DNA of 54,118 nt, the filler included, from Jimgerdemannia flammicorona (lineage: Eukaryota): assembly GCA_003990765.1 (NCBI GenBank). It is 3 parts of 3 records of this genome, joined end to end, with 100 filler letters (N's around TTAATTAATTAA, not from the genome) between each part and the next. Parts side by side here need not be neighbours in the genome. Positions count along the whole stretch, not along the records: positions 18,077 to 36,049 come from RBNJ01002345.1; 2 more parts are not named here. One strand, given 5' to 3'. The first letter of the stretch is position 1. Every line of letters begins with the position of its first letter. Below are positions 11,667 to 39,816 of the stretch, in pieces. Made by a program: the position numbers and the translations under genes. The notes beneath the pieces are model-generated. The model did not search any database. It saw nothing but the letters and a program-made list of their open reading frames with translations, and was not told where the DNA came from.

Positions 11667-11722
<56 letters not shown>

Positions 11723-14326: not shown

Positions 14327-14371
<45 letters not shown>

Positions 14372-14485: not shown

Positions 14486-15049
14486 TTTGAGCTAAATAAG
14501 TAAGTATATATATTATCTATATATTTTATACTATTTCCTAAAGTAAAAATAGGTAAATAAAAAAATAAATTCTGAAAAATTGAATGTCTTTACTAAGATA
14601 ATTTAAGAACTACTTCTATTTATTTTACAAGTTTTCATATTTATACTTTTCTCTACTCTTTTGTTAAATAATAAGAAAATATAATATTTTTATATATTTG
14701 ATATAATTAAATATTCTCCAGCTTCTAAGTTTGGACCAGTATATAGATTCTATAAGAACTACTATTTTTATTATTAAGTTTAGCTAAATAACTAGAAGTA
14801 TTACTAAACTACTTATCTAGATATTCTAAAACTTATAGAGAAAAGATTTTACAACTCAGATATTAAATATACTCTTACTATAGTAAATAAATATATAAAA
14901 AAATATATAATAATAAACTAAAGTAAGAAATTATAAGAACAATAGATTATTATATATATAATAATTATATAATATCGACTTTATTATAAATATCAAAGTA
15001 AGCATATAGCTTTCTCTGGTAACATTCAGGTTATATAATCTTTTAGTAA

Positions 15050-17965
15050 TATATGGGAAGGGGCTCTGGCTTGGGGGAAGCATGAGGGGTCTGCTGGCAA
15101 GAGGATATAGATGGAGAGAGAGTAGGATTAGAGGGCAGAAGATAGGAAGGGTGAGTTTCACAAATGTGGTGAAGAGAGAATGGCCAGCATCTGGGCTAGA
15201 GTGCTGGCTGAGAAAGAGCAAGAAGATAGTGAAAATGACTGAGCATGAGAGAGTGGTCTTTGGCAGTAGAGGCAGTGGAGCTAGAGATATAGTGGCTGAG
15301 GTGAGTATAATGGCTAATAGTAATGAGACTGCCAATTTGGAAAAAAAATCCAGATGTGACTACTGATGGTGGGGCTGAGAGAATGGGGCTTGGATGGATG
15401 AGAGATCTGGCAGATAGTATAATAGGCCTGGTAGTAACCCTGTTACTCAAGAAGTCAATCTTAGAGTTTGTAGTTACTTTGTACTTCAGAAAATTAGCAG
15501 TAATAGTAAAAATGGTGCTGGAACTGATTGTTAAGCAGGTGGTTGGAGCTATATCCATGAAGTTCCTGAAGGGATTGGAAGAAGTGGAGGTTGGCTTTAA
15601 GGAGGCTGGACTATTGGAGAAAGTACTGAAGGCTAGACTGACTATTGGGGAGATATTGTTCTGATGATGTACTGCTTGAGGTGAGACCCCAGGGTGGTGC
15701 AATTGCTGGTAAAAGGGGTGCCCATGGTGACTGCTGAGGAGACAAGAAGGAGAGTCAAGGAAGTCATGGCTAAGTATAGAGAGATAGTTGATGTTGGGTT
15801 CTGGGTCTGGGAGGAAATCTCATTCTAAACTAGAGATATTGATATTAGGATTCAGTTAGCAGAGAAGGAAGCTACTGGAAAGGCTAGGGACTGGCCTTTA
15901 GTAATGGTTTGGGGGACTTTCTTATACAAGATAATAAGAGTGAAGAAGAGTGAGGAGGAGGAAGAGAATTTATTAGAGGCATTGGAGGAGCTGGGTGATG
16001 CTGTAAAGTGGAGAGCAAAGGCTTAGAAGGTATATATCAAGTCAATATATTTAGAAGTGATGGATGGGAAGAGGGTTCATATAGATAAGAGGCTGTGGGA
16101 AAGGTCTCAAGAATATAAGAGGTAGAGAGAGCTGTTGGTGAACCTGGAGAGTAGGACAAAGAAGGATGCTAGTGGTATTGAAATCATAGGAGAAGCCAAG
16201 GAGAGTATCTGGGCTGATAGAGATAGAGAGAATGCAGAGAAGGGGCCAGAAGTGGCCAAGGAGGTGGCTGGATATAACTCTTATATGGATGGTACCTTTG
16301 AGGTCTGAGAAGATTTCCCAATTTCTATGCCTCTTATTAGATGAGGTCCAGCTTCAAGGGGTAGAGTAGAGGAGGATGTGTTCATGCAGAGAGCCTAGTG
16401 AGTATACTTTGGAGTTTCTGAGGTAGTGAAGAGAGGGCAAGTGGTGGTAGCTGATAAGAATTAACTAGTGGATGTCTAAGAGGAGGAGTGGGATGAGGCT
16501 ATAAGCACAGAGACTGATATCTCAATGCTAGATAGAGGGAGGCCAGTAACTTCTAGAGAGAAGGAGGTGAGAAATCTTCTATGGATATACAAGATGATGA
16601 ATAACTTTGCAGCAGAGAAGTTGGGGAAGATGGACCTGCAAGTGATGAGTGACAAGCATTGGATGCATATCCTGTATGGTGAGGGAGTAGTAGAGGTACT
16701 GAAGGTAGAGATTAGAGATTCTTACAGTTTTTCTGGAGAAGGAAGGATATGAGGTTGATAAGAAGAGAGAGGCTAGACTGGCAGTTGCTGCTGATAAGTG
16801 GGCAGCTTTCTGTTGGGTAGAGTAGCATGAGTTATAGCTCTGGCAGGAGACCTGCCTGGAATATTAGGAGGAGTTTGAGGAGAAGGAGGATGGAGAGCTT
16901 GTAGAACTTCTGGTTAGATTGGAGGCTAAGAGGATGGAAGAGGAGGTGGTGACTGCTGAACATAATCTGGACTTAGCTTAGAAGGAGATGAATATAGAGT
17001 AGTAGAGGATATGCTATTATTCCTTATGAATAGTATAACTAATATTTTTTCTTAAATGTGAATGGATTATAGGGTTCATTTTGATGATAGAAAATTTTTA
17101 CTTGGCTGAAGGGATTGGAGGCTGATCTCTTTCTTTTGCAGGATGTCAGATGTAAAGATAATTTGGATAAACTGGAATAGATAAAGGAATGGGGAGGAGA
17201 GGCAGTTTGGAAGAGTAAGATTGGAATTCTGATCAGGAAGGGCAGAGGAGAGATATGAGATATGCAGAACTGGAGAGACAGGCTGGTTTAGAGAGAGTGG
17301 ATTTGTGCTGGTCAGGAACTAGTTATAGTAGAATCCTGCTACTACTCTACTATATGGGGTGAGTATGTAGAGTGGGTGAAGAGTCTCCAGAAGGGAGGGG
17401 CCCTGGCAGAGGCTGGAGTAGATGTACTTGGTGGGGACTTTAATATGGTCAAAGATGTACTGTTAGATAGAACTGATGGAGGGCAGGGAGTAGAGAGTAA
17501 GAGTGGAGATTTGGAGGCATGGGAGGAAGTAGAGTGGCTGAGTACTTTATTGGATACTGGTAGGGGGTTTTGGAGAGATAGGAGGATGTATACACATTGA
17601 GCAAGTAGCCTGGGGATAAGGATTGACTAGATTTTAATAGTGAACTACTGGGGCCTAGATGTTTGGAGGTCACTGGAGGCTGAATGATATCTATGGTCTA
17701 ATCATTAGAGATTGCTAGGACAGGGCCATTTTGGGGAGAGTAGAGATAGACCAGGACATTGGCATCTCAACTTCTTCTTATTAGACAATAAGGTGCTATA
17801 GGACAAGTGGGCTGAGGATATTTGGCAGAGAGTGGAGGGGTGGATACAGAAAGGTGCTCCAGTTGGAGTTAGGTAGATGAGGCTAAAAGAGGCTACTAGG
17901 ATCTATTAGAGGGAGGCCAGTAAGATGGCTAGTAGATAGAGAAGGAAGAGAGTGTTGTGGGCCTC
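15050..17965 (+). mobile_element. Decayed L1/Tx1-like non-LTR retrotransposon (ORF1 remnant + APE endonuclease), truncated by the gap
   Basis: APE motifs with stops: IFSLNVNGL-like (~17040), LLQD, LGGDFNMV (17428), YTH..RID (17590-17630), SNH (from SDH), PGHWHLNF (~17750). Purine-rich sense strand, CpG-depleted. Confidence 0.75.
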
Positions 17966-17976
17966 TTTTTTTTTTT

Positions 17977-18076
17977 NNNNNNNNNNNNNNNNNNNNNNNN
18001 NNNNNNNNNNNNNNNNNNNNTTAATTAATTAANNNNNNNNNNNNNNNNNNNNNNNNNNNNNNNNNNNNNNNNNNNN
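17977..18076. other. Assembly gap with artificial linker (44 N + TTAATTAATTAA + 44 N)
   Basis: Exactly 100 bp with a stop-in-all-six-frames spacer; an identical structure occurs at 36050-36149. Confidence 0.95.
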
Positions 18077-18288
18077 TATAAAAACTAAAGCTTAAGTAGA
18101 AAGGATCTTACCTTATACATACAAAATATAAAAAAGACTACTTTTGGCTATAAAACTATTAGATATATTATCCCAACTATTATCTATCAAAACTAACTCA
18201 TAACTAACCAATAAAGTACTACTATAGCTCTCAAGATTACTAGTACTATCCAGTAGACTAAAAAAAGACAATTTTGTTCTATTGAGTC

Positions 18289-20000
18289 TATAAGAGGGTT
18301 ACTTTTTAAGGTAACCATTATGTAGTTCTGGAAGGGTTTTCTGGAAGTTCTGGATATTTGGGAAGACTGTTTTCTTATGATCAAAATCAATTTCATATGG
18401 AGTATATCCTCTATGCTTATTAATTTCAAGATCAGATTGATGTCTCAACCAAAGTCCTTTTTCAGACTAGTTCTAGAGGATCAGGAGTTTCTATATTTCA
18501 GGAAGTTCAAGAAATTAAGACCAGCTTAGTTGAATTGGTATATTGCTACAGACAATATCCAATTAGGAAATTTTGTAATAGGGTTAGAAATAAGATCTAA
18601 TAGAGAGTAGATTTACTTAAGAGTGATTTGTGGGTTATTAAATAGGTTTATTCGCTATTCATAATATTGCTATACTAGGAGTAGTTATGTGAAGAGATAT
18701 TGTAGGGAAGTACTCAGGAGTTGTATTCAGATTGTTCAGGTATATTCGAGTCTGTTCTTGTCTGAGATTCTGAAGTCTGGGAGAGGGGGTATTTATACTA
18801 GTGAGAGGCTATCTGGGCTATACTAAATATGGATATAGTACTTAGTGCTTTGCTGAGCCAGAATGCAGTCATGTAGTATAAGTGTAATCTGACATATCAA
18901 GAGATTATCTAACTGCTGAGTCAGTTTATAGTCACATTGTATAAGACTAATCTAACTATACTATGACTGCTAAGCTATCTATAAATTTAGATGCTATCTG
19001 GGTAGTCTTCTATAGATTACAGCACTATGAGTCATGGGATTATAGTAAGCTGGCAGCTGTGGTTCATATTACTCATACTCAGGTGGTGGAGTAGTTAGTT
19101 TAATCTCAAGGGTTGTCTGAAGGTACAGGTTGTGTTCTTTGGTCTCTTCATTGTAGTTGAAGTAATTAGGGGTGAATGCAGATTGGTATTTGTACTAGTG
19201 GTCATTATCCCAATAAGTCTCATATGTATGTAGTTATGAACTGTTATAAGTTCATCGGCAAGGTTGGCAGTATAATCAGGGTTGGTAGAGATTCTTGGCT
19301 TGAGGTCATATTGGCATCAGAGGGATCATTGTCTTCTGCTTCATCTTTATCAAATCAGATTATATCATAGATATCCTTCATGGTATATCCAATTTGGAGC
19401 ATTTGCAGAATATGGTCATTAGGGTGCAGGAAGGTTCTGTCTATGGTCTAAATATATTTGAGGTACTTGTGGTTGAGTTCTTATATCATGTCATGGATTT
19501 GACTATAGGACAGGGTGGCAACCATTTCACTAGTAGTAACTCAGAGATAGAGAATAATGGTGCTATACTCATAAAAGAGTTCTCAGTGTTTGCAGGCAAT
19601 GAGTTTCTGGTATTGGGACATCTGAGTGATATCTGTATTATAGTAATGTTCAAGTATGTCTTCTAGGAGGTGGCCAATCTGGTAGTAGCTTGAGATTTGT
19701 CTGATTTGGTGGGCCTCACTAAGTATATTCAGGGCATTTCATCAGGCTTCCACAAAGTAGAGGGGTGCTAGATTATGGATATTTATGAGAGGCAGAGGGG
19801 GTGTGGCTCAGTTGACAATGGTATTCCAAATGTCAGCATAGATGCAGTTGTAAATCTCAGTGATCATGTTTATATGTTCAGAAGTTATAGTTATTGTTTG
19901 TTTTGGTTCTCTGTTTCAATACATCTCAGTACTTGGTATATATGTATTTGGTTCTGATTGGTAAGATTCTGTTTGTGTAAATCTTGTATTCCATGACTTC
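18289..20000 (-). mobile_element. Older partial LTR of Gypsy family A, interrupted at 20000 by a same-family LTR
   Basis: Colinear with 20001-21920 and 28594-30505, more diverged, and missing ~250 bp. It breaks mid-U3 at ...catgacttc|tgtagg. Confidence 0.8.
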
Positions 20001-22079
20001 TGTAGGAGGTTTGCTTTTTTGGATAACTGTTATGTAGTTCTGGAAGGGTTTTCTGGAAGTTCTAGATATTCTGGAAGACTGTTTTCTTATGGTCAAGATC
20101 AATTTCATATGGAGTACGTCCTCTATGCTTATTGATTTCAAGTTCAGGTTGATGTCTCAACCAAAGTCCTTTTTCAGACTAGTTCTGGATGTTCAAGATT
20201 TTTCGTATTTCAGGAAGTTCAAGAAACTAAGACCAGCTTAGTTGAATTGGTGTATCGCTGCAGACAATACCCAATTAGGAAATTTCATAATAGGGTTAGG
20301 AGTGGGACCTAACAGAGAGCAGATTTACTTAAGAGTGGTTTGTAGATTATTAAATAGGTTTATTCGTTATTCATGATATTGTTATACTAGGAGTTGATTG
20401 TGTGAAGGGATATTGTGGGGAAGTGCTCAGGAGTTGTGTTCAGATTGTTCAAGTGTTCAAGTCTGAGATTCTGAGATCTGGGGGAGGGGGTATTTATACT
20501 AGTGAGAGGCTATCTGAACTATGCTGAATATGGATGTAGCACTAAGTGCCTTGCTTTGTTGAGTCAGAATGCAGTCACATAGTACAAGTGTGATCTGACA
20601 TATCAAGAGATCATCTGACTGCTGAGTCAGTTCACAGTCACATCGTATAAGGCTAATCTAACTATACTATGACTGTTAGGCTATTTATAGGTTTAGGCAC
20701 TATCTGGGTAGTCCTCAATGACATCATCATCAATTGTATCATCTCTGATGAAGTAGTTGTCTAGGAAGAGTGGTTTGCGGATTACTTCTCCTTGTTTGCT
20801 GAGGTAATAATACATTGGAACTTTGTCTCCATCCCATAAGATGGCATCATCTGTCTCATACATATGCTAGATAAGGTGTTGGTGAATGAAGGAGTAGTAC
20901 ATTGTCTTTACTTTCATCAGTTTTGCTATCTGTATATCTTCTATAGGTTACAGCACTATGAGTCATGGAGTTGTAGTAAGCTAGTGGCTGTAGTTTATGT
21001 TGCTTGTACTCAGGTGGTGGAGTGGTTGGTTCAATCTCAAGAGTTGTCTGGAGGATAGATTGTGTTCTCCGGTCTCTTCATTATAGTTGAAGTAATCAGG
21101 AGTGAATGTGGGTTGATATTTGTGCCAGTGGTCATTGTCCCAATAAGTCTTATATATGGTTATGAACTATTGTAAGTTCATTGGCAAGGTTGGTAGTGTA
21201 ATTAGTATTGGCAGGGATCCTTGGCTTGGGGTCATATTGGTGTCAGAGGGATCATTGTCTTCTGCTTCATCTTCATCGAACTGGATTATATTGTAAATAT
21301 CCTTCATAGTATATCCGACTTGGGGCATTTACAAGATGTGGTCATCAGGGTGCGGGAAGGTTCTGTCTGTAGTTTCAATGTACTCGAGATACTTGTGGTT
21401 GATTTCTTATATCATGTCATCGATTTGGCCATAGGACAGGGTAGCAACCATTTCACTGGTAGTAACTCAGAGTCAGGGAATAAAGGTGCTGTACTCATAG
21501 AAGAGTTCTTGGTGTTTGTGAGTGATGAGCTTCTGGTGTTGGGATATCTGGGTAATGTCTGTATCATAGTGATGTTCAACCATATCTTCCAGGAGGTGGC
21601 TGATCTGGTAGTAGCTTGAGATTTGTCCAATCTGGTGAGCCTCATTAAGCATGTTCAGGGCATTCCATCGGGCTTCCATGAAGTAAAGAGGTGCTAGGCT
21701 ATGGATATTCATGAGGGGTAGAGAGGGTGTGGCTTAGTTGATAATGGTATTCCAAATGTCAGCATGGATTCGGTTGTAGATCTCAGTGGTCATGTTTGTA
21801 TATTGGAAGTTGTGGTTTGTTGTTTGTTTTGGTTCTCTGTTTTGACATGTCTCAGTACTTAGTATATGCATTTGGTCCTGATTGATAAGATTCCATTTAT
21901 GTGAATCTTATGTTCTGTAACTTCGTATTGACTCAGCTTTGTGTACTGTGACTTTGGTTTGACTCAGCTTCATAATCAAGCAGGTGGTTTGCAGATTTTT
22001 TTGGAGGTTGTGTGTGATTTCAGTGACTTGTTCAGAGGGTGACATGTGATTTCAGTGGCTTGGAGGTTGTGCACTTACA
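20001..22079 (-). repeat. Family A 3' LTR (2079 bp)
   Basis: TGTA...TACA termini. Adjacent PPT (rc AAGAAAGGGAGAGT) at 22080-22093. TATAAATA (rc) at 20491-20498. Homologous to 28594-30824. Confidence 0.9.
20693..21793 (-). pseudogene. Accessory ORF inside the LTR U3 (consensus ~365 aa, acidic C-terminal half)
   Basis: ATG at 21793 to TAA at 20693. Indels differ between LTR copies and cancel in the consensus, and in-frame stops are TGA/TAA/TAG one transition from Arg/Gln codons. Confidence 0.7.
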
Positions 22080-25000
22080 ACTCTCCCTTTCTTAGCTTTC
22101 GATGTCCTCATTGGGGCCTTCTAATTTTGTTCTAGTATTGTTATACTATTTGGGAGATCAAAAGTCTGGTGAAGTCCATTTTTCTCAGAAAGTGGCATGC
22201 TCATAGTACAGTTGCCTAATGCATTGGATTCACATGTTAAAGGGTCATATGTTCAATGCTGTGTGCTGGAAGTGATTCTGACATCATTTACTGCTGGAGA
22301 ATTTCCTTTACAGAATCTTCTTAAATGTCTATACCTCATTTCCCACCAGTGGTACAAGAAGAATAGGCTGGTTTTCAGTTTTACTATTTTTTCCAGAGGG
22401 TTGGTATTCTTGTCTTGTTTTGCTGAGTTTTTGATTCTTTTGATAATTATAGTGTTTGGGAGGATAATATATAGTATGTACAGATAGGTACAGAGTATTT
22501 GATTTTAGTTGTTCAAGGAATCATATTCCTGAACTAAGTCAGTAGTATTCTGGAGATTGGTCTTGGGTTCCCAGGTTGTATCATAGATTGGATAATCTTT
22601 CCATTTGACAAGGTACTTGGGGTGGCTCTTGTTGTCATGTTTGTTGAGGATTTGTTCAACTTTGTACTCTTCTTGGTCATTAATAATAATAGGTACAGGT
22701 GGTTTGGTGGTCTGGTTTGGAAATAGCTCATCATCATTTTCATTGTATTGCTTGAGACATTGGACATTGAAGACTGGGTGAATCTTAATGGTATCTGGTA
22801 GCACCAATTTGTAGGAGGTTGGAGAGACTTGTACAATGACTTCAAATGGTCCAATGAACTTGCTGTTCAGCTTTGTAGATGGTCTGTGCTTGAGGTTGTC
22901 AACTCAGTATCCTCTGATGTCTAGTAGAACTTTTTCTCCAATATCAAAGGTTTCTTCTCGATGTGTTGATTAATATACTGTGACTGTTATTCTTGAGCTT
23001 GTGATAAATTCTCGATGGCAATCTGGCTTACATTACATATTCAGAGCAGGAATTCTTCAACAGCTTCGACTGTAGAGAGTTCTTCAGTAGCTCAGATGAG
23101 TGTCAAAGGGGTGTTTGGGTTTTGTCTAGTGTTGGTGAAGAATGGGGTCATTCTGAGAGAGGCTTGCTTGCTATTGTTATAGGCAACTTGACTACAGTGA
23201 GGTGTTCATGCCAGTCATCTTGTCTGTAGGAAATATAGTTCCTTAGTATTTATTCCAGAGTTCAGTTCATTCTTTTAGTTTGGCCATCAGTTTCTGAGTG
23301 AAAGGCTGTGGATAGTGCAAGTTTTGTTCCAAGGTATGTATGAAGGGCTTTCCAAAAATAGCTGGTAAATTTTGGGTCTCAATTGCTAACAATGATCTTA
23401 GGAAGACCATAATAGTGGAAGATGTTGTCAAATAAGAGTGTGGCTATGTCTGGTGCTGTTACAGTAGTAGTAGTAGGCACAAAGTGGGCTTGTTTGCTGA
23501 GGTAATCCACAAAGACAACAATTGCATCTTTCCCGTTCTTAGTTCAGGATAGTTGTACAATGAAGTCCATAGAGATTTGTTCCCAATTTGCAGATGGTAC
23601 TGGAATAGGGTGAAGTAAGCTGGGTTTTGCTAGTGTTGAGGACTTGTTTCGTTGGCAGGCATCACAGGAAGTAATGTAGGTTTTAAGCTGATCTGCCATG
23701 TGGGACCAATAGAAGTTTCAGGAGATAACTTTATAGCATTTGTCGAATCCTAAATGTCTAGCTTTAGGTGCATCATGACATTTGAATAGGATAGTCCTTC
23801 AGAGGTCTTGGTTGTTTGGGACATACAGTCTGTCCTTGTAGTAGATAGTGTTGTCCTTCAGTTGGTATTGGTAATACTGTGTATGCTTGTCGGCATTATC
23901 ACTGTTCAGGATTTCTCACAGTACTTGAGCTTCCTTATCATCAGCACATGCTGCAATAATTTGCTCTATGATAGTGTTAGTAACCAAGGTGAGAGTTTGG
24001 ATAACTTCTTCAATGGGTGGTCTGGAGATTGCATTGGCAACAATATTTTCCTTACCAGGGTGGTACTAGATTTCTTAGTCAAAGTTGGTGAGAACTTTCA
24101 TCCATCTAGCTTGCTTTCAAGAAAGGGTAGCCTGTGTCTTGATATTGACTAATGATTTGTAGTCAGTCAGTACAGTGAAGTGTACTCCTTCTAGGTAGGG
24201 TCACCATTTGATCAGAGTATCTACGATGGCTAGCATTTCCTTCTTGTGAATTGTATAGTTAATTTCAGCATTATTGAACTTGCAAGAGTGATAGGTCACA
24301 GGGTGTCCTTCCTGTATGAGTACTGCTCCAAGAGCTAGGTCAGAGGTATCAGTAGTAACTTCATATGATAGGGCAGGATTTGCTGCTTGAAGTACTGGAG
24401 TGGTTATCAGGACATCTTTCAGTGCTTGAAAGGCAGTATCTTGCTTGGGTCCCTAAGTTACAAGATTGTTGAAGTCTTTCTCTTGTTTTATGGTCCAGAG
24501 TTGTTCTTGTTTCTTACTGTGCTTGGTCATTTGGGTGAGAGTGGTAGCGATTTTAGCAAAGTTGGCAACAAATCACCTGTAATAGTTTGCTAATCCCAGG
24601 AATGACTGGAGGTCTTTCAGCTTCTTGGGTCTGGGCCAATCTTTGATTGCAGAGATTTTGCTGGAGTCTATTTGGAGTGACAATGTGTTCAAGGAATTGA
24701 ATTTCTTTCAGAAGAAATTCGCACTTACTGAGTTTTGCAAAGAGTCAGTTTTCTCAGAGTTTCAGTAGTACTAGTTCAAGGTGTTCGAGATGTTCTTCCA
24801 GGGTTTTGCTGAAGACTAGGATGTCATCAATATAGACAACAATGAATTTGTCCAGGTATGGATGCAGAATGGTATTCATCAGTGTCTGGAAGGTTGCTGG
24901 AGCATTAGTTAAGCCAAAGGGTATAATCAGGAACTCGAAGTGTCCATAGCAAGTTCAGAAGGCTATTTTGTAGATGTCTTCTTCTTTCATGGTGATTTGC

Positions 25001-28000
25001 CAGTAACCATTTCACAGGTCAAAGGAGCTCATGAATTGTGGGTTGGTAAGTCTATCAAATATTTCATTGATTCTTGGTAGTGGGCAACAGTTCTTGATGG
25101 TCTGTTCATTGAGATCACAGTAGTCAATGTACATTCACAAGTTTCCTCCTTTCTTGACAACAAATAGGACTGGTGCACCATAAGGTAATATGCTGGGTCT
25201 GATGAATCCTTGTTCTAGGAGTTCATCAATTTCTTTCTTGAGTGCATCGATTTCTCTTGGAGACATGTGGTAGATTGACTTGAAGGCTGGTTTGGCATCT
25301 GGGATAGTCTTGATGGCATGGTCTACTGCTTATTTAGGAGGTAGGCCTTTCGGGAGCTTCTTTGGGAATATGTCTCGAAATTTCTGAAGTAGTGGTCTGA
25401 CATGGCTGTCAACTTTGGAAAAATCTTCTTCAGAGTTCTTGGGTTCTCCTTTGGATGGACGGATGGAGATGGCGAAGAGAGGGTATTTCTTGGCCAATTT
25501 CTTAAGTTGTAGCTTGTTGATGTGGGTGATCTTTGGTCCAGGGTCACTAGAATTAAGTGGGTCCTTTTTGCCTTATAGTTTGAAGTTGTGGCATCCTTTC
25601 TTGATGGTCAGAGAATGGTTTACCCAATTGATCATAGGGTTCTCTTGTTTTTACCATAGAGTCTCAAGGATGATTTCATTATCAGGAAGTGGTACAAATT
25701 GGAGAGTAACATGTACTTGGTAGTCTCCAATTCAGAAGGGTAGGTTGTGGACTTCCTTGTTAATAACATGTGAGGTTCCATCAGCTGTGGTGACTACTTA
25801 AGTTTGTTGTACTGGAGAGGTGAAGACCTTAAGTCTATTGGCTGTCTCTTCATTGATGAAGTTGCCTGAGGCACCACTGTCTATCATAATCTTGACAGGT
25901 ACTTAGTTGACAAAAGCTTTAAGTATAAGCAGTTTGTCTGATCCAATGGTGGTGATTTCAGTTATAGGAGCTTTCCTTCTGTTGGTTCTTCTTTGTGCCA
26001 GTTCATTGAAATAAGAGAAACAATCATCAATCATTCGGGAAGAGTACATTCCAATGCCATGAGGGCATCAGCTACTTAGTACATATCCATCTTCAATCTT
26101 CTTGTAGAATTGTTCTTCTTTGCTCATGGTAGGTTGGGCTAGGGCCTTGTTTGATGAGCCAAATCCTTTGGATCCTCAGATGGTAGGTAGTAGTTCAGGG
26201 ACTTCCTTGACTATCAGGGTTGACTCAATTTTTTTGAATAGAATCTAGACAATGCAGAAACCTATAGAGATCTTGAAGGGTGTCTAACTGTGGTTTCGAA
26301 TGAGGATAATGATTTCGCCTGTGTAATCTTCGTCGATAACTCCTCCTTCTACTGAGAGTCCTTTCAATACTAGGCTGCTGCGACAGCATATTCTTCCAAC
26401 ATGTCCTTCAGGGATTTGGATGCTGATTTCTTTGTAGACTTGTTTGACTTCTCAGTTGGAAACTGTAGCTTCTTCAGCTGCATATAGGTCATATCCAGCT
26501 GCTTTTTGACTTCCTTTGGTTGGGGCCTTAGCAGTTTGTCTTAACTTGACAAAGTCTAATGTTCTGGTGGTCAGGTTATTGAGGTGGTGCAGAGTGGTAA
26601 CAGTTGCTCATGTTGCTGTTTGGGGTTTTCGGTTAGGGCAGGCACTGGCCATGTATCCTGTCTTTTGGCAATAGAAGCATACTCCACTTCTTCAAAGTTC
26701 ATTCCTTTTGCCTTCAGTGAGTTTTTTGAAGGTGCTTGGCTGAGTGGGTTCATAATTTCTAGGTATCCAAGAGGTGGATGTGGAGGGAGCTTGGGATGCT
26801 TCATGCTTGGGTTCTTCTTTCTTGGTCCAAGTCTTTTCCTTATTGTTGAATTGTCTTTGGGGCAGAATTGGTCCAGCTGTTAGGATTCACTTGACCATAG
26901 TCTTGATTCTTGCCAGGCATCATTATTGGTGATCACAACCAACTGGGTGGCCTTGTTCTTGGATTTTTCTAGTAAGCCATTCAGGTAGTGTATCGAATAA
27001 ATGGTCTGCTCTTGTACCATTTCATGCTTTGTCATTGGCAATGTATCCTAGGCCAACAGTGTTCAGGAGTGACTTGAGTTTGTACAGAAGGTTTCAAATT
27101 CTTCTTTACCATATATGTATATCGAATTTGAGGTTGCAGAGTTTTACTCGGGATTTAGCAATTATGGTTTTGCTGCAGTATTGAGCAATCATAAGTTGTT
27201 TGAGTCCAGGGGCTGCAGGATGGGCTCCATATCCTGGGGCATTGTTTGCTGTATTCTGAGCAACTACTGCAGATCGGGTATCCCATGTGAGGTGTTTTTC
27301 AGGAAGGGTTCACCACCATTCTTCGGCAGGTCCTTGGAAGAATGTAACAACTCGGCAGACATAGGCTATAGTGGTAGCAAAGAGTTGTTCCAGAGTGTGG
27401 TCTTGATTATTTGTCAGAACATGGTCAGCAACTCGCTCATTGGTTCATTGATTGGCTTTGAAGTTGGTGTCAACTACACTAATGAAGCTTTGGACTTCTT
27501 ATGCCATACCATTAAAGGTAGGTAGGCTCAGATTTTTGGTAGGTCGGGTCTGTTCAGCTAAGGCAGTAATGGTTGCTGCCATTATAGCTACTTGGGCTAT
27601 AAGGTCTAGAATCTGTTGGTTTGCCATGTTGTTTACTGGAGGTGGTTGGACTGCTGGCAGTAGTTTTACTGATACTACTTGAGATACTGGTGCAGAGTGT
27701 GATGGGGTTCTTTGGGTCTGTATAAGTTGCTAGAGTAGTAGTTGTAGATCTGGAGTAAGGGCTTGATAGATAGCTATTTGTTACTGTATAGGTATATTCT
27801 GTCCTGATGGAAGTGCATCTCCTTTGGTGGTGTATGTATCTGGGATTGAATTTACTAAGATACTCCTCCTCTTCTTCAGTTTGGTCCCCATGTAATTAGG
27901 TTTTCTCGGTGTCAAAGTAGATAGAATCAGTTGTATATCTGATTTCAGATGGACTTAATTCAAAGTTAAGTTCAGGTTTGGTATTGGTTTCAGATTCAGA

Positions 28001-28593
28001 TAGGGCTGTAGCAGGGCCTTCTTCAGGTTCAGGGTCAGGTAGTTGATGAAGGGTTTCTCTTGCTTCTTCTTTAAGAATATGGCAGATCTTGCTATTCTGG
28101 AATCGATAGTATAACATGGTCTTGGTCCTGGTACAGTGAAAGTCAGTAGAGTTGAGCCACTTGGCTACAGAGGCCTGGGCTTCATGAGGAACTATGGCTA
28201 GAAAGACTGCTGCTGGTTGTCCTAGATCACTCGGATTTGTGGAGCTGACAAAACTCTTGTTGAGAAGAGTAAAGAAGGCTTCAATAAGACCTTCTTCATC
28301 TTGACTTGCTGGGTATAGTACAAGGAGTTTGGTGAATAGGGTTTTGCCTATTTGCTGATTTAGTTGGAGTACTTCTTTTTTTGAGTGAAGTTTGTCCCAC
28401 TTGTTATAGGTGTAGAGGTCAAATTGTCCTTATACATTAGGTTCAATTCTCTCCAGATTGTTAGATGGTTCAGGATAAATTCCAGTTCAGGGGTTGGGCT
28501 TTATACCAACTTGTAGGAATTCTCAGAAGGGTTTATAGTGGGGTGAGAAAGCATCTTGAAGCGGAATTGGATTGTAAACCACTGCTACCAAGT
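22080..28593 (-). mobile_element. Gypsy family A internal region, copy 1 (chromovirus-type; gag-ZnK-dUTPase-PR-RT-RH-IN-chromodomain), pseudogenised
   Basis: Zn knuckle CFYCQKTGYMASAC (~26640-26685); dUTPase AAGYDLY..RSSL..GGVIDEDYTG..GSKGFGSS (26155-26560); protease IDSGASGNF (~25860-25890); RT VYIDDI (~24825); integrase GPFE; chromodomain EEYKVEQIL..YLVKWKDY..TWEP (22505-22680). Confidence 0.92.
28579..28590 (-). promoter_or_regulatory. Primer-binding site of family A, initiator tRNA-Met-like
   Basis: rc TGGTAGCAGTGG lies 3 nt inside the LTR boundary; TGGTAGCAG matches the iMet tRNA 3' complement. Confidence 0.7.
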
Positions 28594-30824
28594 TGTAGGA
28601 GGTTTGCTTTTTTAGGTAACCATTACGTAGTTCTGGAAGGGTTTTCTGGAAGTTCTAGATATTCTGGAAGACTGTTTTCTTATGGTCAAGATCAATTTCA
28701 TATGGAGTATGTCCTCTATGCTTATTGATTTCAAGTTTGGGTTGACATCTCAACCAAAGTCCTTTTTCGGACTAGTTCTGGATGTTCAGGATTTTCCATA
28801 TTTCAGGAAGTTCAAGAAACTAAGACCAGCTTAGTTGAATTGGCATATCGCTGTAGACGATACCCAATTAAGAAATTTCATAATGGGGTTAGGAGTGGGA
28901 CCTAACGGGGAGCGGATTAACTTAAGAGTGGTTTGTGGGTTATTAAATAGATTTATTCATTATTCATGATATTGTTATACTAGGAGTTGGTTGTGTGAAG
29001 GGATATTATGGAAAAGTACTTAGGAGTTGTGTTCAGATTGTTCAAGTGTTCAAGTCTGAGATTCTGAGATCTGGGGAAGGGGGTATTTATACTAGTGAGG
29101 GGCTATCTGGACTATACTGAATATGGATATAGCACTAAGTGCCTTACTGAGTTGGAATACAGTCACATAGTACAAGTGTGATCTGATATATCAAGAGATT
29201 GTCTGACTGCTGAGTCAGTTCACAGTCACGTTGTACAAGGCTAATCTAACTATACTATGACTGTTAGGCTATTTATAGGTTTAGGCACTGTCTGGATAGT
29301 CCTCAATGACATTACTATTAATTGCATCATCTCTGATGAAGTAATCATCTAGGAAGAGTGGTTCGCAGATTACTTCTCCTTATTTGCTGAGGTAATAATA
29401 CATTGGAACTTCGTCTCTATCTCACAAGATGGTATCATCTGTCTCATATGCTGGATAAGATGTTGGTGGATAAAGGAGCAGTACATTGTCTTCACTTTTA
29501 TTGGTTTCGCTATCCACATATCTTCTATAGATTACAGCACTATGAGTCATGGAGTTGTAGTAAGCTGACAGCTGTGGTTTATGTTGCTCGTACTCAGGTG
29601 GTGGAGTGGTTGGTTCAATCTCAAGAGTTGTCTGGAGGTACAGGTTATGTTCTCCAGTCTCTTCATTATAGTTGAAGTAATCAGGAGTGAATACGGGTTA
29701 GTATTCATGCCAGTGGTCATTGTCCCAATAGTCTCGTATGTGGTTATGAACTGTTGTAAGTTTATCGGCAAGATTGGTGGTATAATTAGTATTGGTAGGG
29801 ATCCTTGGCTTGGGGTCATATTAGTGTCAGAGGGATCATTGTCTTCTGCTTCATCTTCATCGAACTGGATTATATCATAAATATCCTTCATAGTATATCT
29901 AACTTGGGTATTTACAAGATGTGGTTATTGGGGTATGGGAAGGTTCTGTCTGTAGTTTCAACGTACTCGAGATACTTGTGGTTGATTTCTTATATCATGT
30001 CATCGATTTGGCTGTAGGACAGGGTAGCAACCATTTCACTAGTAGTAACTCAGAGTCAGGAAATAAAGGTGCTATACTCATAGAAGAGTTCTCAGTATTT
30101 GCAGGTGATGAGCTTCTGGTGTTGGGACATCTGGGTAATGTCTGTATCATGGTGATGTTCAACCATATCTTCCAGGAGACAGCCAATCTGATAGTAGCTT
30201 GAGATTTGTCCAATCTGGTGGGCCTTGTTAAGCATGTTTAGGGCATTCCATCGGGCTTCCACGAAGTAAAGGGATGCTAGGCTATGGATATTCATCAGGG
30301 GTAAAGGGGGTGTGGCTCAGTTGACAATGGCATTCCAAATGTCAGCACAGATTCAGTTATAGATCTTGGTGGTCATGTTTGTGTATTGGAAGTTGTAGTT
30401 TGTTATTTGTTTTGGTTCTCTGTTTTGACGCATCTCGGTGCTTGGTATATATGTATTTGGTCCTGATTGGTAAGATTCTGTTTATGTGAATCTTGTATTC
30501 TGTGACTTTGTATTGACTCAGCTTTGTGCACTGTGACTTCAGTTTGACTCAGCTTCATGATCAAGTAGGTGGTTTCCAGATTTGTTCAGAGGTCATGTGT
30601 GATTTCAGTAGCTTGTTCAGAGGGTGATATGTGATTTTGGTGGCTTGGAGGTTGTGTGCTTATAACTTCATATTGACTCAGCTTTGTATGCTGTGACTTT
30701 AGTTTAACTCAGCTTTATGATCAAGCAGATAATTTCTAGATTTATTTAGCTATCACATGTGATTTCGGTGGCTTGTTCAGAGAGTGACATGTGATTTCTG
30801 TGGCTTGGAGATTATGTGCTTACA
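28594..30824 (-). repeat. Family A shared central LTR (2231 bp): 5' LTR of copy 1 and 3' LTR of copy 2
   Basis: PBS on its left, PPT (rc AAGAAGGAGAGAGT) on its right. Contains the U3 ORF at 29281-30376 and a ~155-bp duplication near 30510-30820. Confidence 0.9.
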
Positions 30825-33800
30825 ACTCTCTCCTTCTTAGCTTTCAACATCCTCATCAGGGCCTTCTAATTTATTCTAGTATTGTTATACCATTTGGGAG
30901 GTCAAAAGTCTGATGAAGTCCATTTTTCTCAGAAAGTGGTATGCTTGTAGTACAGTTGCCTAACGTATTAGATTCATATGTTAAAGGATCATATGTTCGA
31001 TGCCATATACTAGAAGTGATTCTGATATCATTTACTGCTAGAGAATTTCCTCTAAAGAATCTTCTTAAATATCTATACCTCATTTCCCACCAGTGGTATG
31101 GAGAGAATAGGCTTGCTTTCAGTTTTGCTATTTTTTCAGAGGATCAGTATTCTTTGTCTTGTCTTGCTGAGTTCTTGATTTTGTTTGTAATAATTATAAT
31201 GTTTGGAAGGATAATATATAGTATATACTGGTAGATGCAGAGTATTTGGTTTTAGTTGTTTAAGGAATCATATTCCTAAACTAAGTCAGTAGCATTCTGG
31301 AGATTGGTCTTGGATTCTCAGGTTGCATCATGGATTGGGTAACCTTTCTATTTGACAAGGTACTCAGGGTGATTCTTGTGGCTATGTTTGTTGAGGACTT
31401 GTTCAACTTCATATTCTTCTTAGTCATTAATAATGACAGGTACAGGTGGTTCTGTAGTTTGGTTTGGGAATAGCTCCTCATCATTCTCATTATATCACTT
31501 GAGACATTGAACATTAAAGACTAGGTGAATCCTAATAGTATCTAGTAGTGCCAATTTATAGGAGATCGAGGAGACCTGTGCAATGACTTCAAATGGTCCA
31601 ATAAACTTACTATTCAGCTTTGTAGATGATCTGTGCTTGAGGTTGTCAACTTAGTATCCTTGGATGTCTAGTAGAACTTTTTCTCTAATATCAAAGATTT
31701 CTTCTCAGCAGTATTGGTTAACATACTGTAACTATTATTCTTGAGCTTGTGATAAATTCTCGATTGTGATCTGGCTTAGATTATGCATTCAGAGCAGGAA
31801 TTCTTCAACAGCTTCGACTGTGGAGGGTTCATCAGTAGTTCAGATAAGTATCAGAGAGGTGTTTGGGTTTTGTCCAGTATTAGTAAAGAATGGGGTCATT
31901 CCAAGAGAGGCTTGCTTGCTGTTGTTGTAGGCAAACTCAACTATAGTAAGGTATTCATGCCAATCATCTTGTCTGTAGAAAACATAGTTCCTTAGTATTT
32001 GTTTCAGAGTTCAGTTCATTCTTTCAGTTTGGCCATCAGTTTTGGGGTGAAAGGCTGTGGATAGTGCAAGTTTTGTTCCAAGGTATGCATGAAGGACTTT
32101 CTAAAAATGGCTGGTGAATTTTGGATCTCAGTTATTAACAATAATTTTAGGAAGACTGTGATAGTGGAAGATGTTGTCAAACAAGAGTGTAGCTATGTCT
32201 AGTACTGTTGCAGTAGTGGTAGTTGGCATGAAGTGGGCTTATTTGCTGAGATAGTCCACAAAGATAACAATTACATCTTTTCTATTCCTAGTTCAGGATA
32301 GTTATATAATAAAGTCTATAGAGATTTGTTCCCAATTAGCAGATGGTACTGGGATTGGATGGAGTAGGCCAGGTTTTGCTAGTGTTGAGGACTTGTTTCA
32401 TTGGTAGTCATCACAGGAAGTGATATAGGTCTTTAGCTGATCTGCCATACAGGGCCAATAGAAGTTTTGGGAGATAATTTCATAGCATTTATCAAATCCT
32501 AAATGTCCAGCTGTAGGGGCATCATGACATTCAAATAGGATAGTCCTTTGGAGGTCTCAGTTGTTTGGAACATACAGTCTGTTCTTGTAGTAGATAGCAT
32601 TGTTCTTCAGTTAGTATTGGTGGTATTGGATATACTTGTCAGCATTATCACTGCTTAGGATTTCTTAGAGTGCTTGAGCTTCCTTATCATTAGTACATAC
32701 TGTGATAATTTGTTCTATGATAGTGTTGGTAACCAAGGTAAGAGTTTGGATAACTTCTTCAATGGATGGTCCAGAGATTACATCAGTAATAATGTTTTCC
32801 TTGCCAGGATAATACTGAATTTTGTAGTCAAAGTTGGTGAGGACTTTCATCCATCTGGCTTGCTTTTGAGAAAGAGTAGTCTGTATCTTGATGTTGACTA
32901 ATGACTTGTGGTCAGTCAATACAGTGAAGTGTGCTCCTTTTAGGTATGGTCACTATTTGATCAGAGTGTCTACAATGACTAGTATTTTCTTCTCGTGGAT
33001 TGTATAGTTGATTTCAGCATCATTGAATTTATGGGAGTGATAGGCAACTGGGTGTCCTTCTTGCATGAGTACTGCTCCAAGGGCTAGGTCAGAGGCATCA
33101 ATAGTAATTTTATATAGTAGGGCAGAGTTTGCCACTTGAAGTACTGGAGTAGTTATCAAGGCATCTTTCAATACTTGAAAGGCTGTATCTTATTCAGATC
33201 TCCAATTTACAAGATTGTTGAAGTCTTTCTCTTGTTTCATGGTCTAGGGTTATTCTTCTTTCTTGCTGTGCTTGGTTATTTGAGTAAGGGCAGTAGTAAT
33301 TTTGACGAAGTTGGCAACAAATCACCTGTAATAGTTTGCTAATCTCAGGAATGACTGTAGGTTTTTCAGCTTCTTAGGTCTGGGCCAATCTTTAATTGTG
33401 GAGATTTTGCTAGGGTCCACTTTGATTCTATTTGGAGTGACAATGTGTCCAAGAAATTGGATTTCTTTCAGGAGAAATTCACATTTGCTGAGTTTTGCAA
33501 AGAGTTGGTTTTCTTGAAGTTTCAGTAGTACTAGTTCAAGATGTTCCAGATATTCTTCCAGGGTTTTGCTGAAGACTAGAATATCGTCAATATAGATAAC
33601 TACAAATTTATCCAGGTATAGGTGCAGGATAGTATTCATCAGGGTCTGAAAGATTGTTGGGGTATTAGTTAAGCCAAAAGACATAATTAGGAACTTGAAG
33701 TGTCCATAGTGGGTTTGGAAGGCTGTCTTGTAGATGTCTTCTTCTTTCATAGCAATTTGCTAATAACCATTTCATAGATCAAAAGAGCTCATGAATTGCA

Positions 33801-36040
33801 GGTTGGTAAGCCTATCGAATATTTCATCAATTCTGGGTAGTGGGCAACAGTTCTTGATGGTCTGTTCATTGAGATCTTGGTAATCGATATATATTTGCAG
33901 ATCTTCTTCTTTTTTGACAATAAAGAGGACTGGTGCACCATAGAGTGATATACTGGGTCTGATGAATCCTTGTTCTAAGAGCTCATCAATTTCTTTCTTG
34001 AGTGCATCAATTTCTCTCAGAGACATGTGGTAGATTGACTTGAAGGCTTGCCTTGTATCTGGGATAGTCTTGATGGTATAGTCTACTGCTCATTTAGGAG
34101 GTAGGCCTTTCGGAAGCTTCTTTGGAAATATGGCTCGAAATTTCTGGAGTAGTGGTCTGACATGGCTATCAACTTTGGAAAAGTCTTCTGCAGAGTTCTC
34201 GGGTTCTCCTTTGGATAGATGGATGGAGATGGCAAAGAGAGGACATTTCTTGGCCAGTTTCTTGAGTTGTAGCTTATTGATATGAGTGATCTTTGGTCCA
34301 GGGTCACTAGAGTTGAGTGGGTCCTTTTTATCTTGCAGTTTGAAGTTGTGGTGTCCTTTCTTGATGGTTAGAGAATGGTTTATCCAATTGATTATGGGGT
34401 TTTCTTATTTCAACCATAGGGTTCCAAGAATGATCTCATTATCAGGTAGTGGTATGATCTGGAGGGTAATATGTACTTAGTAGTCACTAATTTGGAAGGG
34501 CAGATTGTGGACTTCCTTGCTAATAATATATGAGGTTCCATCAGTTATAACAACTGCTTGAGTTTGTTGTACTGGAGAGGTAAAGACCTTGAGTCTGTTG
34601 GCTGTTTCTTTATTGATAAAGTTGCCTGAGGTACTACTGTTTATTATAATCTTGACAAGTGCTCAATTGACAAAAGCTTGAAGTGTAAGCTGTTTGTCTG
34701 ATCCAATAGTGGTGATTTCAATTGTAGGGGCTTTCCTTCTATTAGTTCTTCTTTGAGCCAGTTCATTGATACAAGAGAAGCAATCATCAATTATTCAGGA
34801 AGAGTACATTCCAATGCCATGGGGGCATCAGCCACTTAGTATATATCCATCTTCAATTTTCTTATAAATTGTTCTTCTTTGTTCATAGTAGGTTGGGCTG
34901 GAGCCTTGTTTAATAAGCCAAATCTTTTAGATCCTTGGATGGTGGGCAGTAGTTCAGAGACTTCCTTGACTGTCAGAGTTGATTTGATTTTTTTGAATAG
35001 GATCTGGGCAATGCAGAAACCAATGGAGATCTTGAAGGATGTCTAACTATGGTTTCAGATGAGGACAATAATTTCACCTATATAATCTTTATTAATGACT
35101 CCTCCTTCTACTGAGAGTCCTTTCAATGCTAGGCTGCTGTGACAGCATATTCTTCCAATATATCTTTCAGGGATTTGTATGCTGATTTCTGTGTAGATTT
35201 ATTTGACTTCTCAGTTGGAAACTGTAGCTTCTTCAGCTGCATACAGGTCATATCTAGCTACCTTTTGACTTCCTTTGGTTGGGGCCTTGGCAGTTTGCCT
35301 TAACTTGACAAAGTCCAGTGTTCTGGTAGTCAGAATATTGAGGTGGTGTAGAGTAGTAACAGTTGCTCATATTGCTGTTCAGGGTTTTCAGTTGGGGCAG
35401 GCACTGGCCATGTATCCTGTCTTTCAGCAATAGAAGCATACTCCACTTCTTTGAAGTTCATTTCTTTCTCCTTCAGTGAGTTTCTTGAAGGTACTCAGCT
35501 GGGTGGGTTCCTGATTTCTGGATATCCATGAGGTGGATGTAGAGGGAGCTTGGGATGCTTCATGCTTGAGTTTTTCTTTCTTAGTCCAAGTCTTTTCCTT
35601 GTTGTTAAATTGTCTTCGAAGCAGAATTGGTCTAGCTGTTAAGATTCACTTGACCATAGTCTTGATTCTTGCTAGGCATCATTGTTGGTGATCACAATCA
35701 ACTGGGTGGCCTTGTTCTCAGATTTTTCTAGTAAGCCATTCAGGCAGGGCATCAAATAAATGATCTGCTCTTATATCATTTTGTACTTTATCAATGGCAA
35801 TATATCCTAGGCCAATGGTGTTCAGAAGTGACTCAAGTTTTGTATAGAAGGTTTCAAATTCTTCCTTGCCATGTATATCAAATTTGAGGTTGTGGAGTTT
35901 TACTTGAGATTTAGTAATTATGGTTTCACTGCAGTATTGAGCAATCATGAGTTGTTTGAGTCCAGGGGCTGCAGGATGGGCTCTATATCCTGAGGCATTG
36001 TTTGCTACATTCTGAGTAACTACTGCAGGTCAAGTATCCC
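30825..36040 (-). mobile_element. Gypsy family A internal region, copy 2, truncated in gag by the gap
   Basis: Colinear with 22080-27280. RT ORF 33322-33750 (IYIDDI), RNase H 32953-33171, dUTPase ~34915-35320. Confidence 0.92.
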
Positions 36041-39779: not shown

Positions 39780-39816
39780 ACTTCCTCCTGAATAGATGGT
39801 CTCATCCCTGGGGCAT

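What the first reader, a model, noticed from the sequence alone, without database searches (positions are those of the whole stretch)
20693..21793. A ~365-aa protein encoded inside the U3 of a 2-kb Gypsy LTR
Seen: the family-A LTR copies (ORF at 20693-21793, 29281-30376, and partly ~19000-19870) give a continuous sense-strand consensus, MTTEIYNRIHADIWN..QISSYYQIGHLL..ELFYEYSTFIPRLRVTT..DEDEAEDND..YWDNDHWHEYQP..TPPPEY..DDDVIEDYPDSA*. It lies upstream of the LTR TATA box. The frameshifts are private to single copies (-1/+4 in one, -1/-1 in another) and both restore to 1098 nt. Established: LTR-embedded genes are known in complex retroviruses (MMTV sag, lentiviral nef, foamy bel) but are not standard in Ty3/Gypsy. 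Inference: an accessory gene copied with every LTR, so even solo LTRs would spread it. The acidic half and PPxY motif suggest a transactivator, nucleic-acid mimic or anti-silencing factor.
Basis: partly seen in the sequence, partly recalled or inferred. Interest (0 to 1): 0.87.

Follow-up and report, generated by a model that had tools for sequence, protein, structure and literature searches.

The report
Protein gene inside a fungal retrotransposon LTR
The 2-kb terminal repeat of a decayed Gypsy-type retrotransposon in a soil fungus carries the remains of a real protein gene of about 365 codons with no known relatives, an arrangement otherwise known mainly from complex retroviruses.

Summary
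On the minus strand lies a tandem array of a chromovirus (gag, dUTPase, PR, RT, RH, IN, chromodomain) with three copies of a ~2.1-kb LTR. The LTR is bounded by TG..CA, preceded by a polypurine tract and followed by a TGG primer-binding site.

Each LTR copy carries the same ~366-codon frame (21793-20693, 30376-29281, 19867-19005). The frame is broken only by private small indels and by stops. 25 of the 27 internal stops are C>T or G>A changes from sense codons.

Two database proteins show it is a real gene. P0004 (128 aa, 85% identical) matches the N-terminus and has Arg where our copies have TGA. P0003 (247 aa, uninterrupted) matches residues 115-365 at 55-67% in the in-frame pieces and has the same C-terminus. 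A profile search of 1.84 billion proteins found no other relative.

The ORF lies upstream of two TATAAATA boxes and the single conserved AATAAA, so it is probably in U3. A CCAAT/TATA-like pair sits upstream of its ATG.

Function is unknown. The N-terminus is weakly predicted as helical. The C-terminal 245 aa are very acidic, aromatic-rich and predicted disordered. The PPxY motif is not conserved.

The host is Jimgerdemannia-like (Endogonales). All three copies here are dead, and no RNA data could be obtained.

The parts
20001..22079 (-). LTR copy A (2079 nt, TGTAAG...CCTACA); 3' LTR of the internal region 22080-28593
   Evidence: Self-blast. Alignment. Termini and PPT read. Contig joints at 22077-22080.
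20693..21793 (-). ORF copy A: ATG 21793-21791, TAA 20695-20693. It has 10 internal stops and is out of the ancestral frame between about 21054 and about 20859 (-1 then +4).
28594..30824 (-). LTR copy B; it carries a 160-bp tandem duplication at its 5' end (30505-30827) and is followed directly by the PBS
29281..30376 (-). ORF copy B (1096 nt, two private -1 deletions). The C-terminal 149 codons, 29730-29284, are in one frame with 3 stops.
18289..20000 (-). LTR copy C: lacks the first ~155 nt, has an internal deletion of about 205 bp, and abuts the end of copy A head to tail
19005..19867 (-). ORF remnant in copy C (+4 insertion; 3' part deleted)
22080..28593 (-). Internal region: gag (CCHC), dUTPase, PR, RT, RNase H, integrase, SH3_Tf2-1, chromodomain. 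It is heavily decayed (91 stops in frame 1) and pol ends near 22470.
30828..36040 (-). Second, 5'-truncated internal copy (86% identical to 21918-27284); this makes the locus a tandem int-LTR-int-LTR-LTR array
28579..28590 (-). Primer-binding-site-like TGGTAGCAGTGG, 3 nt after the end of LTR B
   Evidence: direct reading. The matching tRNA was not identified.
22081..22093 (-). Polypurine tract AAGAAAGGGAGAG, just upstream of LTR A; the equivalent tract lies upstream of LTR B at about 30826-30838
20682..20689 (-). First TATAAATA, 4 nt after the ORF stop; conserved in A and B, mutated in C
20491..20498 (-). Second TATAAATA, conserved in all three copies; the likely promoter of the genomic RNA
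20359..20364 (-). AATAAA, the only one at an equivalent LTR position in all three copies, about 130 nt after the second TATA box
21862..21885 (-). Candidate ORF promoter. CCAATCAG (intact in B at 30470-30463 and in C at 19961-19954; TCAAT in A) plus CATATATAC (B, C; A has a private 2-nt deletion), 70-95 nt upstream of the ATG. There is an A at -3.
   Evidence: The private deletion in A is confirmed by 'put in TA' at 21862. Promoter function is inference.

Best explanation
The family-A LTR of this Ty3/Gypsy chromovirus carries the decayed remains of a real gene of about 365 codons. The host is a Jimgerdemannia-like fungus (Endogonales).

Shown:
- The frame is homologous to two independently predicted database proteins, and one of them is uninterrupted.
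- It sits wholly between the TG start and CA end of the LTR, downstream of the PPT.
- Reverse transcription therefore copies it to both ends of every new element, and every solo LTR retains it.

Inferred, about 0.7: it lies in U3. Two TATAAATA boxes and the only conserved AATAAA follow it, which gives a conventional R of about 100 nt.

Inferred, about 0.5: it has its own promoter, a CCAAT box plus a TATA-like box 70-95 nt upstream of the ATG, and uses the LTR polyadenylation signal. Each LTR would then be a self-contained transcription unit of about 1.4 kb, independent of gag-pol.

Inferred, about 0.3: the product is a trans-acting regulator. A short helical N-terminal domain would target it, and a long acidic, aromatic-rich, disordered C-terminal half would act as an acidic activation domain on the downstream LTR promoter. 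This would resemble foamy-virus Tas or HTLV Tax in logic, not in ancestry.

The three copies in this window are dead. They are inactivated by CpG/CpA-type transitions and small indels.
For: LTR identity:
- Self-blast: 20001-22082 matches 28594-30667 at 90% over 2085 nt. A third copy lies at 18287-20004.
- Read directly: TGTAAG...CCTACA termini, a PPT before copies A and B, and TGGTAGCAGTGG 3 nt after copy B.
- Contigs of public runs break at 22077-22080, and one joins 28593 to 20006.

Backbone: the internal region has dUTPase, RVP, RVT, RNase H, integrase zinc domain, SH3_Tf2-1 and Chromo.

Coding nature:
- 3 all-copy stops in the sense frame, against 15 and 32 in the other two sense frames.
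- Columns holding G or C in any copy, by codon position: 204/126/206.
- P0004: 128 aa, 85% identity, E 3.4e-65. It has Arg where all our copies have stops at codons 20 and 109, where copies A and B do at 107 and where copies B and C do at 95.
- P0003: 247 aa without a stop, E 7e-70, 128/252 identical and 169/252 positives to copy A. Identity to the in-frame pieces is 55-67%. It has the same ...YPDS C-terminus and Gln at our stops 129, 155 and 209. All gaps are whole codons.
- P0003 residues 101-246 align to copy B in one frame.

Decay: 197 transitions against 13 transversions between A and B. CpG O/E is 0.14 in the elements and 1.06 in the genic part.

Reads: every laid contig has C where copy A has the stop at codon 155 (place 21331).

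Protein properties: P0003 has pI 4.05, 46 D+E against 10 K+R, 36 Y/F/W, no Cys and no hydrophobic segment. The N-terminus is predicted as four helices with pLDDT 57.
Against: - No full-length intact copy was seen anywhere. P0003 covers only residues 115-365 and P0004 only 1-128. The DNA context of both is unknown, so the LTR location is shown only for this family.
- Codon 129 is TAA in all three copies, and P0004 ends exactly before it. The family here may already have carried a premature stop.
- The matching antisense frame is almost as open (4 all-copy stops). Strand choice therefore rests on the homologues and on the conserved ATG and TAA.
- No transcription start, transcript or peptide is known.
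- The third-position excess in copy C against A=B (25/14/50) is not clearly different from the neutral A-versus-B pattern (31/14/34 over the same columns). There is thus no within-window proof of purifying selection.
- The C-terminal model has pLDDT 31 (ESM model 0.39). There is no fold or family match. The proposed function rests on composition alone.
Confidence: 0.72

Rival explanations
1. The ORF lies in R, not U3. Genomic RNA would start at the CCAAT/TATA-like promoter upstream of the ATG, R would be about 1.4 kb long, and the ORF would be the first cistron of the genomic RNA. It would be an 'ORF0' that happens to fall inside the repeat.
For: A CCAAT box plus a TATA-like box lie 70-95 nt upstream of the ATG in copies B and C. 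Upstream extra ORFs (Retrosat2 ORF0, upstream of gag-pol) are known in plant Gypsy elements (PMC3485330 passages).
Against: Two canonical TATAAATA boxes follow the ORF. The only conserved AATAAA lies about 130 nt after the second one, which is the usual short-R layout. With a 1.4-kb R, the poly(A) signal in the 5' LTR would be far from the cap, and gag would lie about 2.3 kb from the 5' end behind a translated ORF.
Confidence: 0.12
2. The gene is a passenger. A host or foreign gene was captured into an LTR and carried along without serving the element. In this family it was already truncated (TAA at codon 129), so at most a 128-aa N-terminal product was made.
For: Codon 129 is TAA in all 3 copies, and P0004, otherwise little decayed, ends at residue 128. 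Transposition needs only gag-pol.
Against: - Downstream of codon 129 there is no all-copy stop in 236 codons.
- The diverged P0003 keeps this part open, with conserved blocks and whole-codon gaps.
- No host paralogue or any other relative exists among 1.84 billion representative proteins. That collection includes the host's annotated proteins.
- CAA>TAA is a CpA-type transition. The same kind made the private stops at codons 155, 208, 209, 227, 265 and 333, so recurrence is plausible.
Confidence: 0.13
3. It is not a gene: a chance open frame in an A/C-rich, T-poor LTR strand.
For: The sense strand is T- and G-poor. The matching antisense frame has only 4 all-copy stops. AlphaFold and ESM give low confidence.
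Against: Two independent database proteins match in the same frame, with E 7e-70 and 3e-65, and one is uninterrupted over 247 aa. Stop counts differ about ten-fold between frames and composition has a period of 3. The ATG and TAA are conserved in all copies.
Confidence: 0.03

Closest known systems
MMTV sag (superantigen ORF in the U3 of the betaretroviral LTR)
   Same: A sense-strand ORF of about 320-365 codons lies wholly inside the LTR, upstream of the LTR promoter, and is present in both LTRs of every provirus. The MMTV facts are recalled; only search listings were seen.
   Different: That is a vertebrate retrovirus, and Sag is a type II membrane glycoprotein. Here the element is a fungal chromovirus and the protein is acidic and Cys-free with no hydrophobic segment. 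There is no Pfam hit of any kind, so none to a Sag family.
Foamy-virus tas/bet (bel genes reaching into U3, internal promoter) and HIV nef overlapping U3
   Same: These are 3'-terminal accessory genes that overlap or lie in U3. In foamy viruses they are expressed from a separate promoter and encode a transactivator with an acidic C-terminal activation domain (recalled knowledge). This is the closest functional analogy to my preferred reading.
   Different: There is no sequence or fold similarity. In those viruses the genes begin in the internal region, whereas here the whole gene, with its candidate promoter, lies inside the LTR. Activator function is untested here.
Additional ORFs (aORFs) of plant Ty3/Gypsy elements (Ogre/Retrosat2 ORF0, Grande/RIRE2/Retand antisense ORFs, env-like ORFs)
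   Same: These are family-specific extra ORFs of unknown function, conserved within a lineage and without relatives elsewhere.
   Different: In the passages I read, they lie in the internal region, upstream of gag or between pol and the 3' LTR (PMC7264820 passages; PMC3485330 passages). The review passages mention none inside an LTR.
dUTPase-bearing fungal chromoviruses (e.g. PosPlaTy3-3 of Postia placenta)
   Same: The backbone is the same: chromodomain Gypsy with dUTPase at the N-terminus of Pol, before PR (PMC2864245 passages; our order).
   Different: They are reported from basidiomycetes and Tuber, whereas this host is an Endogonales (Mucoromycota) fungus. A figure legend in that paper mentions an 'add. 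ORF' in some fungal elements, but I could not see its position (figure and .doc supplement not readable).

Membership tests
Ty3/Gypsy chromovirus (LTR retrotransposon) | Pol domain order PR-RT-RNase H-IN, with a C-terminal chromodomain | tested here: met
   Pfam hits: RVP_2 2e-8, RVT_1 2e-26, RT_RNaseH 1e-27, Integrase_H2C2 1e-15, SH3_Tf2-1 2e-15, Chromo 5e-13, plus dUTPase 2e-27 between gag CCHC and PR.
Ty3/Gypsy chromovirus (LTR retrotransposon) | Direct long terminal repeats with TG..CA ends, PBS after the 5' LTR and PPT before the 3' LTR | tested here: met
   Contig joints at the LTR ends. No target-site duplication could be checked because the locus is a tandem array.
LTR-embedded gene (as MMTV sag) | The whole ORF lies inside the repeat and is present in every LTR copy | tested here: met
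   The ORF starts 286 nt after the LTR start and ends 692 nt before the LTR end. It is present in copies A, B and C.
LTR-embedded gene (as MMTV sag) | Position in U3, that is, upstream of the start of the genomic RNA | not testable with these tools
   Only motif positions are available: TATAAATA twice and AATAAA downstream. No RNA holder was listed.
MMTV Sag protein family | Sequence similarity and a transmembrane segment | tested here: not met
   There is no Pfam hit below E 0.5. The maximum 19-residue Kyte-Doolittle mean is 0.57-1.46.
Protein-coding gene under selection | An intact homologue in a diverged lineage, with whole-codon gaps and conserved blocks | tested here: met
   P0003: 247 aa, no stop, 55-67% identity to the in-frame pieces.
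Protein-coding gene under selection | dN/dS below 1 on nucleotide alignments | not testable with these tools
The within-window position test was inconclusive.
Acidic transcriptional activator (Tas/VP16-like) | Activation of transcription by an acidic, hydrophobic disordered region | not testable with these tools
   Composition only: pI 4.05 and 15% aromatic residues; pLDDT 31.
PPxY late-domain protein | A conserved PPxY motif | tested here: not met
   PPEY is present in copies B and C, but P0003 has TPLSEY at that place.

The most novel reading that the evidence does not exclude
Each LTR of this fungal chromovirus is an autonomous gene. It has its own CCAAT/TATA promoter, a 365-codon ORF, and the LTR poly(A) signal. 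Its acidic-aromatic product transactivates, or protects from silencing, the genomic promoter lying just downstream in the same LTR. This would be a retrovirus-style 'complex' regulatory circuit evolved independently in a retrotransposon of an early-diverging fungus. Solo LTRs would act as dispersed helper loci for the whole family.
Probability: 0.2. Interest if true: 0.85.

Novelty: new variant of a known kind. Interest (0 to 1): 0.66.

Why it matters
Extra genes in LTR retrotransposons are known, but in what I could read they sit in the internal region. A conserved gene inside the LTR changes the genetics of the element in three ways:
- It is present in two doses per element.
- It survives in solo LTRs after the element is lost by recombination.
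- It can be expressed without gag-pol.

Until now this layout has been a mark of complex retroviruses (MMTV sag; the foamy-virus and lentiviral 3' genes). Finding it in a chromovirus of Endogonales would show that such accessory-gene architecture evolved outside retroviruses.

It would also provide a tractable orphan protein to test for self-activation or anti-silencing. In practice, LTRs are routinely treated as non-coding and masked, so such genes are systematically missed. That may explain why only two fragments exist among 1.84 billion representative proteins.

Tried and rejected
- Whole genome: none is held for this window, so no genome-wide set of copies and no young-copy test.
- Metagenome contig scans with the alignment and with P0004 found no relative. 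The DNA context of P0003 and P0004 therefore stays unknown.
- Sequencing runs: 8 listed, all small shares (0.06-0.19), soil metagenomes and a coded 'organism A'. No RNA holder was listed. This says nothing about expression.
- Read laying showed only the 40 best-supported of 2031 differences, so the state of codon 129 in other copies could not be read.
- Pfam gave only DUF5401 at E 0.52.
- The PDB sequence profile gave only SKA1 at E 0.16.
- The ESM Atlas gave no usable relative.
- Foldseek on the N-terminal model found nothing below E 0.5, only ferritin-like helical bundles. I rejected these as generic helix matches to a low-confidence model.
- The C-terminal model (pLDDT 31) was not searched because it is meaningless.
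- Selection test by codon position gave a weak, non-significant third-position excess.
- Earlier findings of this scan: nothing returned.
- Literature searches for LTR-embedded ORFs in retrotransposons returned only retroviral cases. These cover open-access text only, so an older or paywalled description cannot be excluded.
- A spliced subgenomic mRNA across about 6 kb was considered and set aside as unlikely in a fungus. It was not tested.

Full report
**Locus.** Self-comparison of the window shows three copies of a ~2-kb repeat and two copies of a ~6.5-kb unit.
- 18287-20004 matches 19999-21924, apart from a ~205-nt gap, at 83-86%.
- 20001-22082 matches 28594-30667 at 90% over 2085 nt.
- 21918-27284 matches 30663-36040 at 86% over 5385 nt.

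Translation of the minus strand of 22083-28593, with stops read as X, and Pfam scans give this domain order: gag with a CCHC knuckle, dUTPase (2e-27), aspartic protease, RT (2e-26), RNase H (1e-27), integrase zinc domain, SH3_Tf2-1 and Chromo (5e-13). The element is therefore a chromovirus on the minus strand.

**LTR boundaries.** The repeat begins TGTAAG directly after the polypurine tract (PPT) AAGAAAGGGAGAG (22093-22081) and ends CCTACA. Copy B is followed after 3 nt by the primer-binding-site-like (PBS) sequence TGGTAGCAGTGG. Contigs of public runs break at 22077-22080, and one joins 28593 to 20006. The repeat is thus a true LTR.

Read on the minus strand, the locus is a tandem array: 5'-truncated internal copy, LTR B, internal region, LTR A, LTR C.

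**The ORF.**
- Copy A reads ATG (21793) to TAA (20693) in one frame, 367 codons with 10 internal stops.
- tblastn finds the same frame in B (30376-29284, three frames) and C (19867-19005), and nowhere else in the window.
A has -1 near 21054 and +4 at 20859-20862. B has two -1 deletions. C has +4 and a deletion of about 205 bp.
- In the public runs, loose ends at 21054 carry the B/C-like state. Some contigs lack the 4 nt.

**Is it more than chance?**
- With the private insertions removed, the sense frame has 3 internal codons that are stops in every copy. The other sense frames have 15 and 32. The antisense frames have 4, 16 and 22.
- Base composition has a period of 3. Columns with G or C in any copy number 204/126/206 by codon position.
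- The 27 internal stop occurrences lie at 18 sites. Twelve are C>T/G>A derivatives of a sense codon in another copy. Thirteen fit CGA or CAA, as implied by Arg in P0004 or Gln in P0003 (inference). Two, both in copy C, need more steps.
- Differences between copies are almost all transitions: A-B 197 against 13 transversions in 2093 columns.
- CpG O/E is 0.14 in the elements and 1.06 in the genic 12 kb.
- G/A sites follow C or T, so both CpG and CpA/TpG contexts are hit.

**Homologues.** The word-indexed search of 5.8 billion proteins found two.
- P0003 (ENA, 247 aa, on a 998-nt contig; E 7e-70).
- P0004 (JGI 'hypothetical protein', 128 aa, on a 1180-nt contig; 85% identical; E 3e-65).

P0004 is the N-terminus. 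It has Arg at our stop codons 20, 95, 107 and 109, and Arg or Ala where our copies have His, Gln, Cys or Thr.

P0003 has these features.
- It matches residues 115-365 without a single stop.
- It has Gln at our stops 129, 155 and 209.
- Its gaps are whole codons.
- It ends at the same ...YPDS C-terminus.
- It runs through the stretch that is frameshifted in copy A, in the frame that copy B keeps.
- Identity to the in-frame pieces of A, B and C is 55-67%.
- Three conserved blocks are separated by variable acidic and Pro/Tyr-rich linkers.

A HMMER profile search of 1,835,955,588 representative proteins found only these two.

Together these results establish a real, selected protein gene with no wider family.

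**Limits of this evidence.**
- No full-length intact copy was seen.
- The genomic context of P0003 and P0004 is unknown (empty).
- Codon 129 is TAA in all three copies, and P0004 stops just before it.

**Position within the LTR.** The ATG is 286 nt from the LTR start. The stop is followed after 3 nt by TATAAATA (20689-20682). A second TATAAATA, conserved in all copies, lies at 20498-20491. The only conserved AATAAA lies at 20364-20359, and the LTR ends at 20001. This is the usual U3, short R, U5 layout, with the ORF in U3. It remains an inference, because no start site is mapped.

Upstream of the ATG, copies B and C keep CCAATCAG and CATATATAC, 70-95 nt away, and an A at -3. Copy A has private changes there, one of them confirmed. 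This could be a promoter for the ORF itself.

**Protein.**
- P0003 has pI 4.05, 46 D+E against 10 K+R, 36 aromatic residues, 24 Pro, no Cys and no hydrophobic segment.
- AlphaFold2 gives four helices for the N-terminal 128 aa (pLDDT 57, pTM 0.49).
- It gives no confident structure for the C-terminal part (pLDDT 31; ESM model 0.39).
- Foldseek, Pfam, the PDB profile search and the ESM Atlas gave nothing usable.
- PPEY occurs in B and C but not in P0003.

My preferred function is an acidic-aromatic transactivator acting on the LTR promoter. It rests on composition and on analogy only, and I give it about 0.3.

**Host.** The 867-codon RBR-type ORF at 9220-11823 is 100% identical to an NCBI protein of Jimgerdemannia flammicorona, an Endogonales fungus of the Mucoromycota. 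In four runs (three soil metagenomes and a coded organism), thousands of contigs match the element at 80-99% identity. The family is therefore highly repeated.

**Literature.**
- The passages I read of the plant aORF review place extra ORFs in the internal region (PMC7264820).
- Retrosat2 ORF0 lies upstream of gag-pol (PMC3485330).
- dUTPase-bearing Gypsy elements are reported from basidiomycetes, Tuber and bdelloid rotifers (PMC2864245; PMC5408684).
- Five full-text searches for LTR-embedded ORFs in retrotransposons returned only retroviral cases.
- These searches cover open-access text only. One figure and a .doc supplement of PMC2864245, which show an 'add. ORF' in fungal elements, could not be seen.

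**Verdict.** Its placement in U3, its expression and its function remain inferred. I rate it a new variant of a known kind.

Noticed in passing
window 22083-28593 (-) and 39334-46042 (-; ORF 42375-43493): Two different Gypsy families in this Endogonales fungus carry a dUTPase domain (Pfam 2e-27 and 4e-24). The papers I read report dUTPase-bearing LTR retrotransposons only from basidiomycetes, Tuber and bdelloid rotifers.
   Followed up: partly
window 30505-30827 (-): There is a 160-bp tandem duplication (82% match) at the very 5' end of LTR B. LTR C starts exactly where one such unit ends, so the first ~155 nt of the LTR behave as a separable, enhancer-like module.
   Followed up: partly
window 20000/20001: Head-to-tail LTR-LTR junction: the CA end of LTR A abuts LTR C, which is 5'-truncated by ~155 nt. 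With the int-LTR-int-LTR order, this points to unequal recombination rather than simple insertion. No target-site duplication could be defined.
   Followed up: no
window 12000-47000: Decay is targeted to the transposable elements. CpG O/E is 0.14-0.34 in them, against 1.06 in the genic 1-12 kb. About 94% of differences between copies are transitions, in both CpG and CpA/TpG contexts. This looks like a methylation- or RIP-like process in a Mucoromycota genome.
   Followed up: partly
window 27660-28593 (-): The first plausible gag start (MANQQ...) lies about 930 nt downstream of the PBS, an unusually long leader full of stops.
   Followed up: no
window 14000-18287: An AT-rich stretch (GC 0.33-0.43) has extreme GC skew (+0.31 to +0.52). 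It has no Pfam hit for its one long ORF (15196-15819, -). Its nature is unknown.
   Followed up: no
window 50277-53189 (+): A third Gypsy-like element lies on the plus strand, with a CCHC knuckle and an aspartic protease in ORF 51384-52190. It is much less decayed, with long open frames.
   Followed up: no
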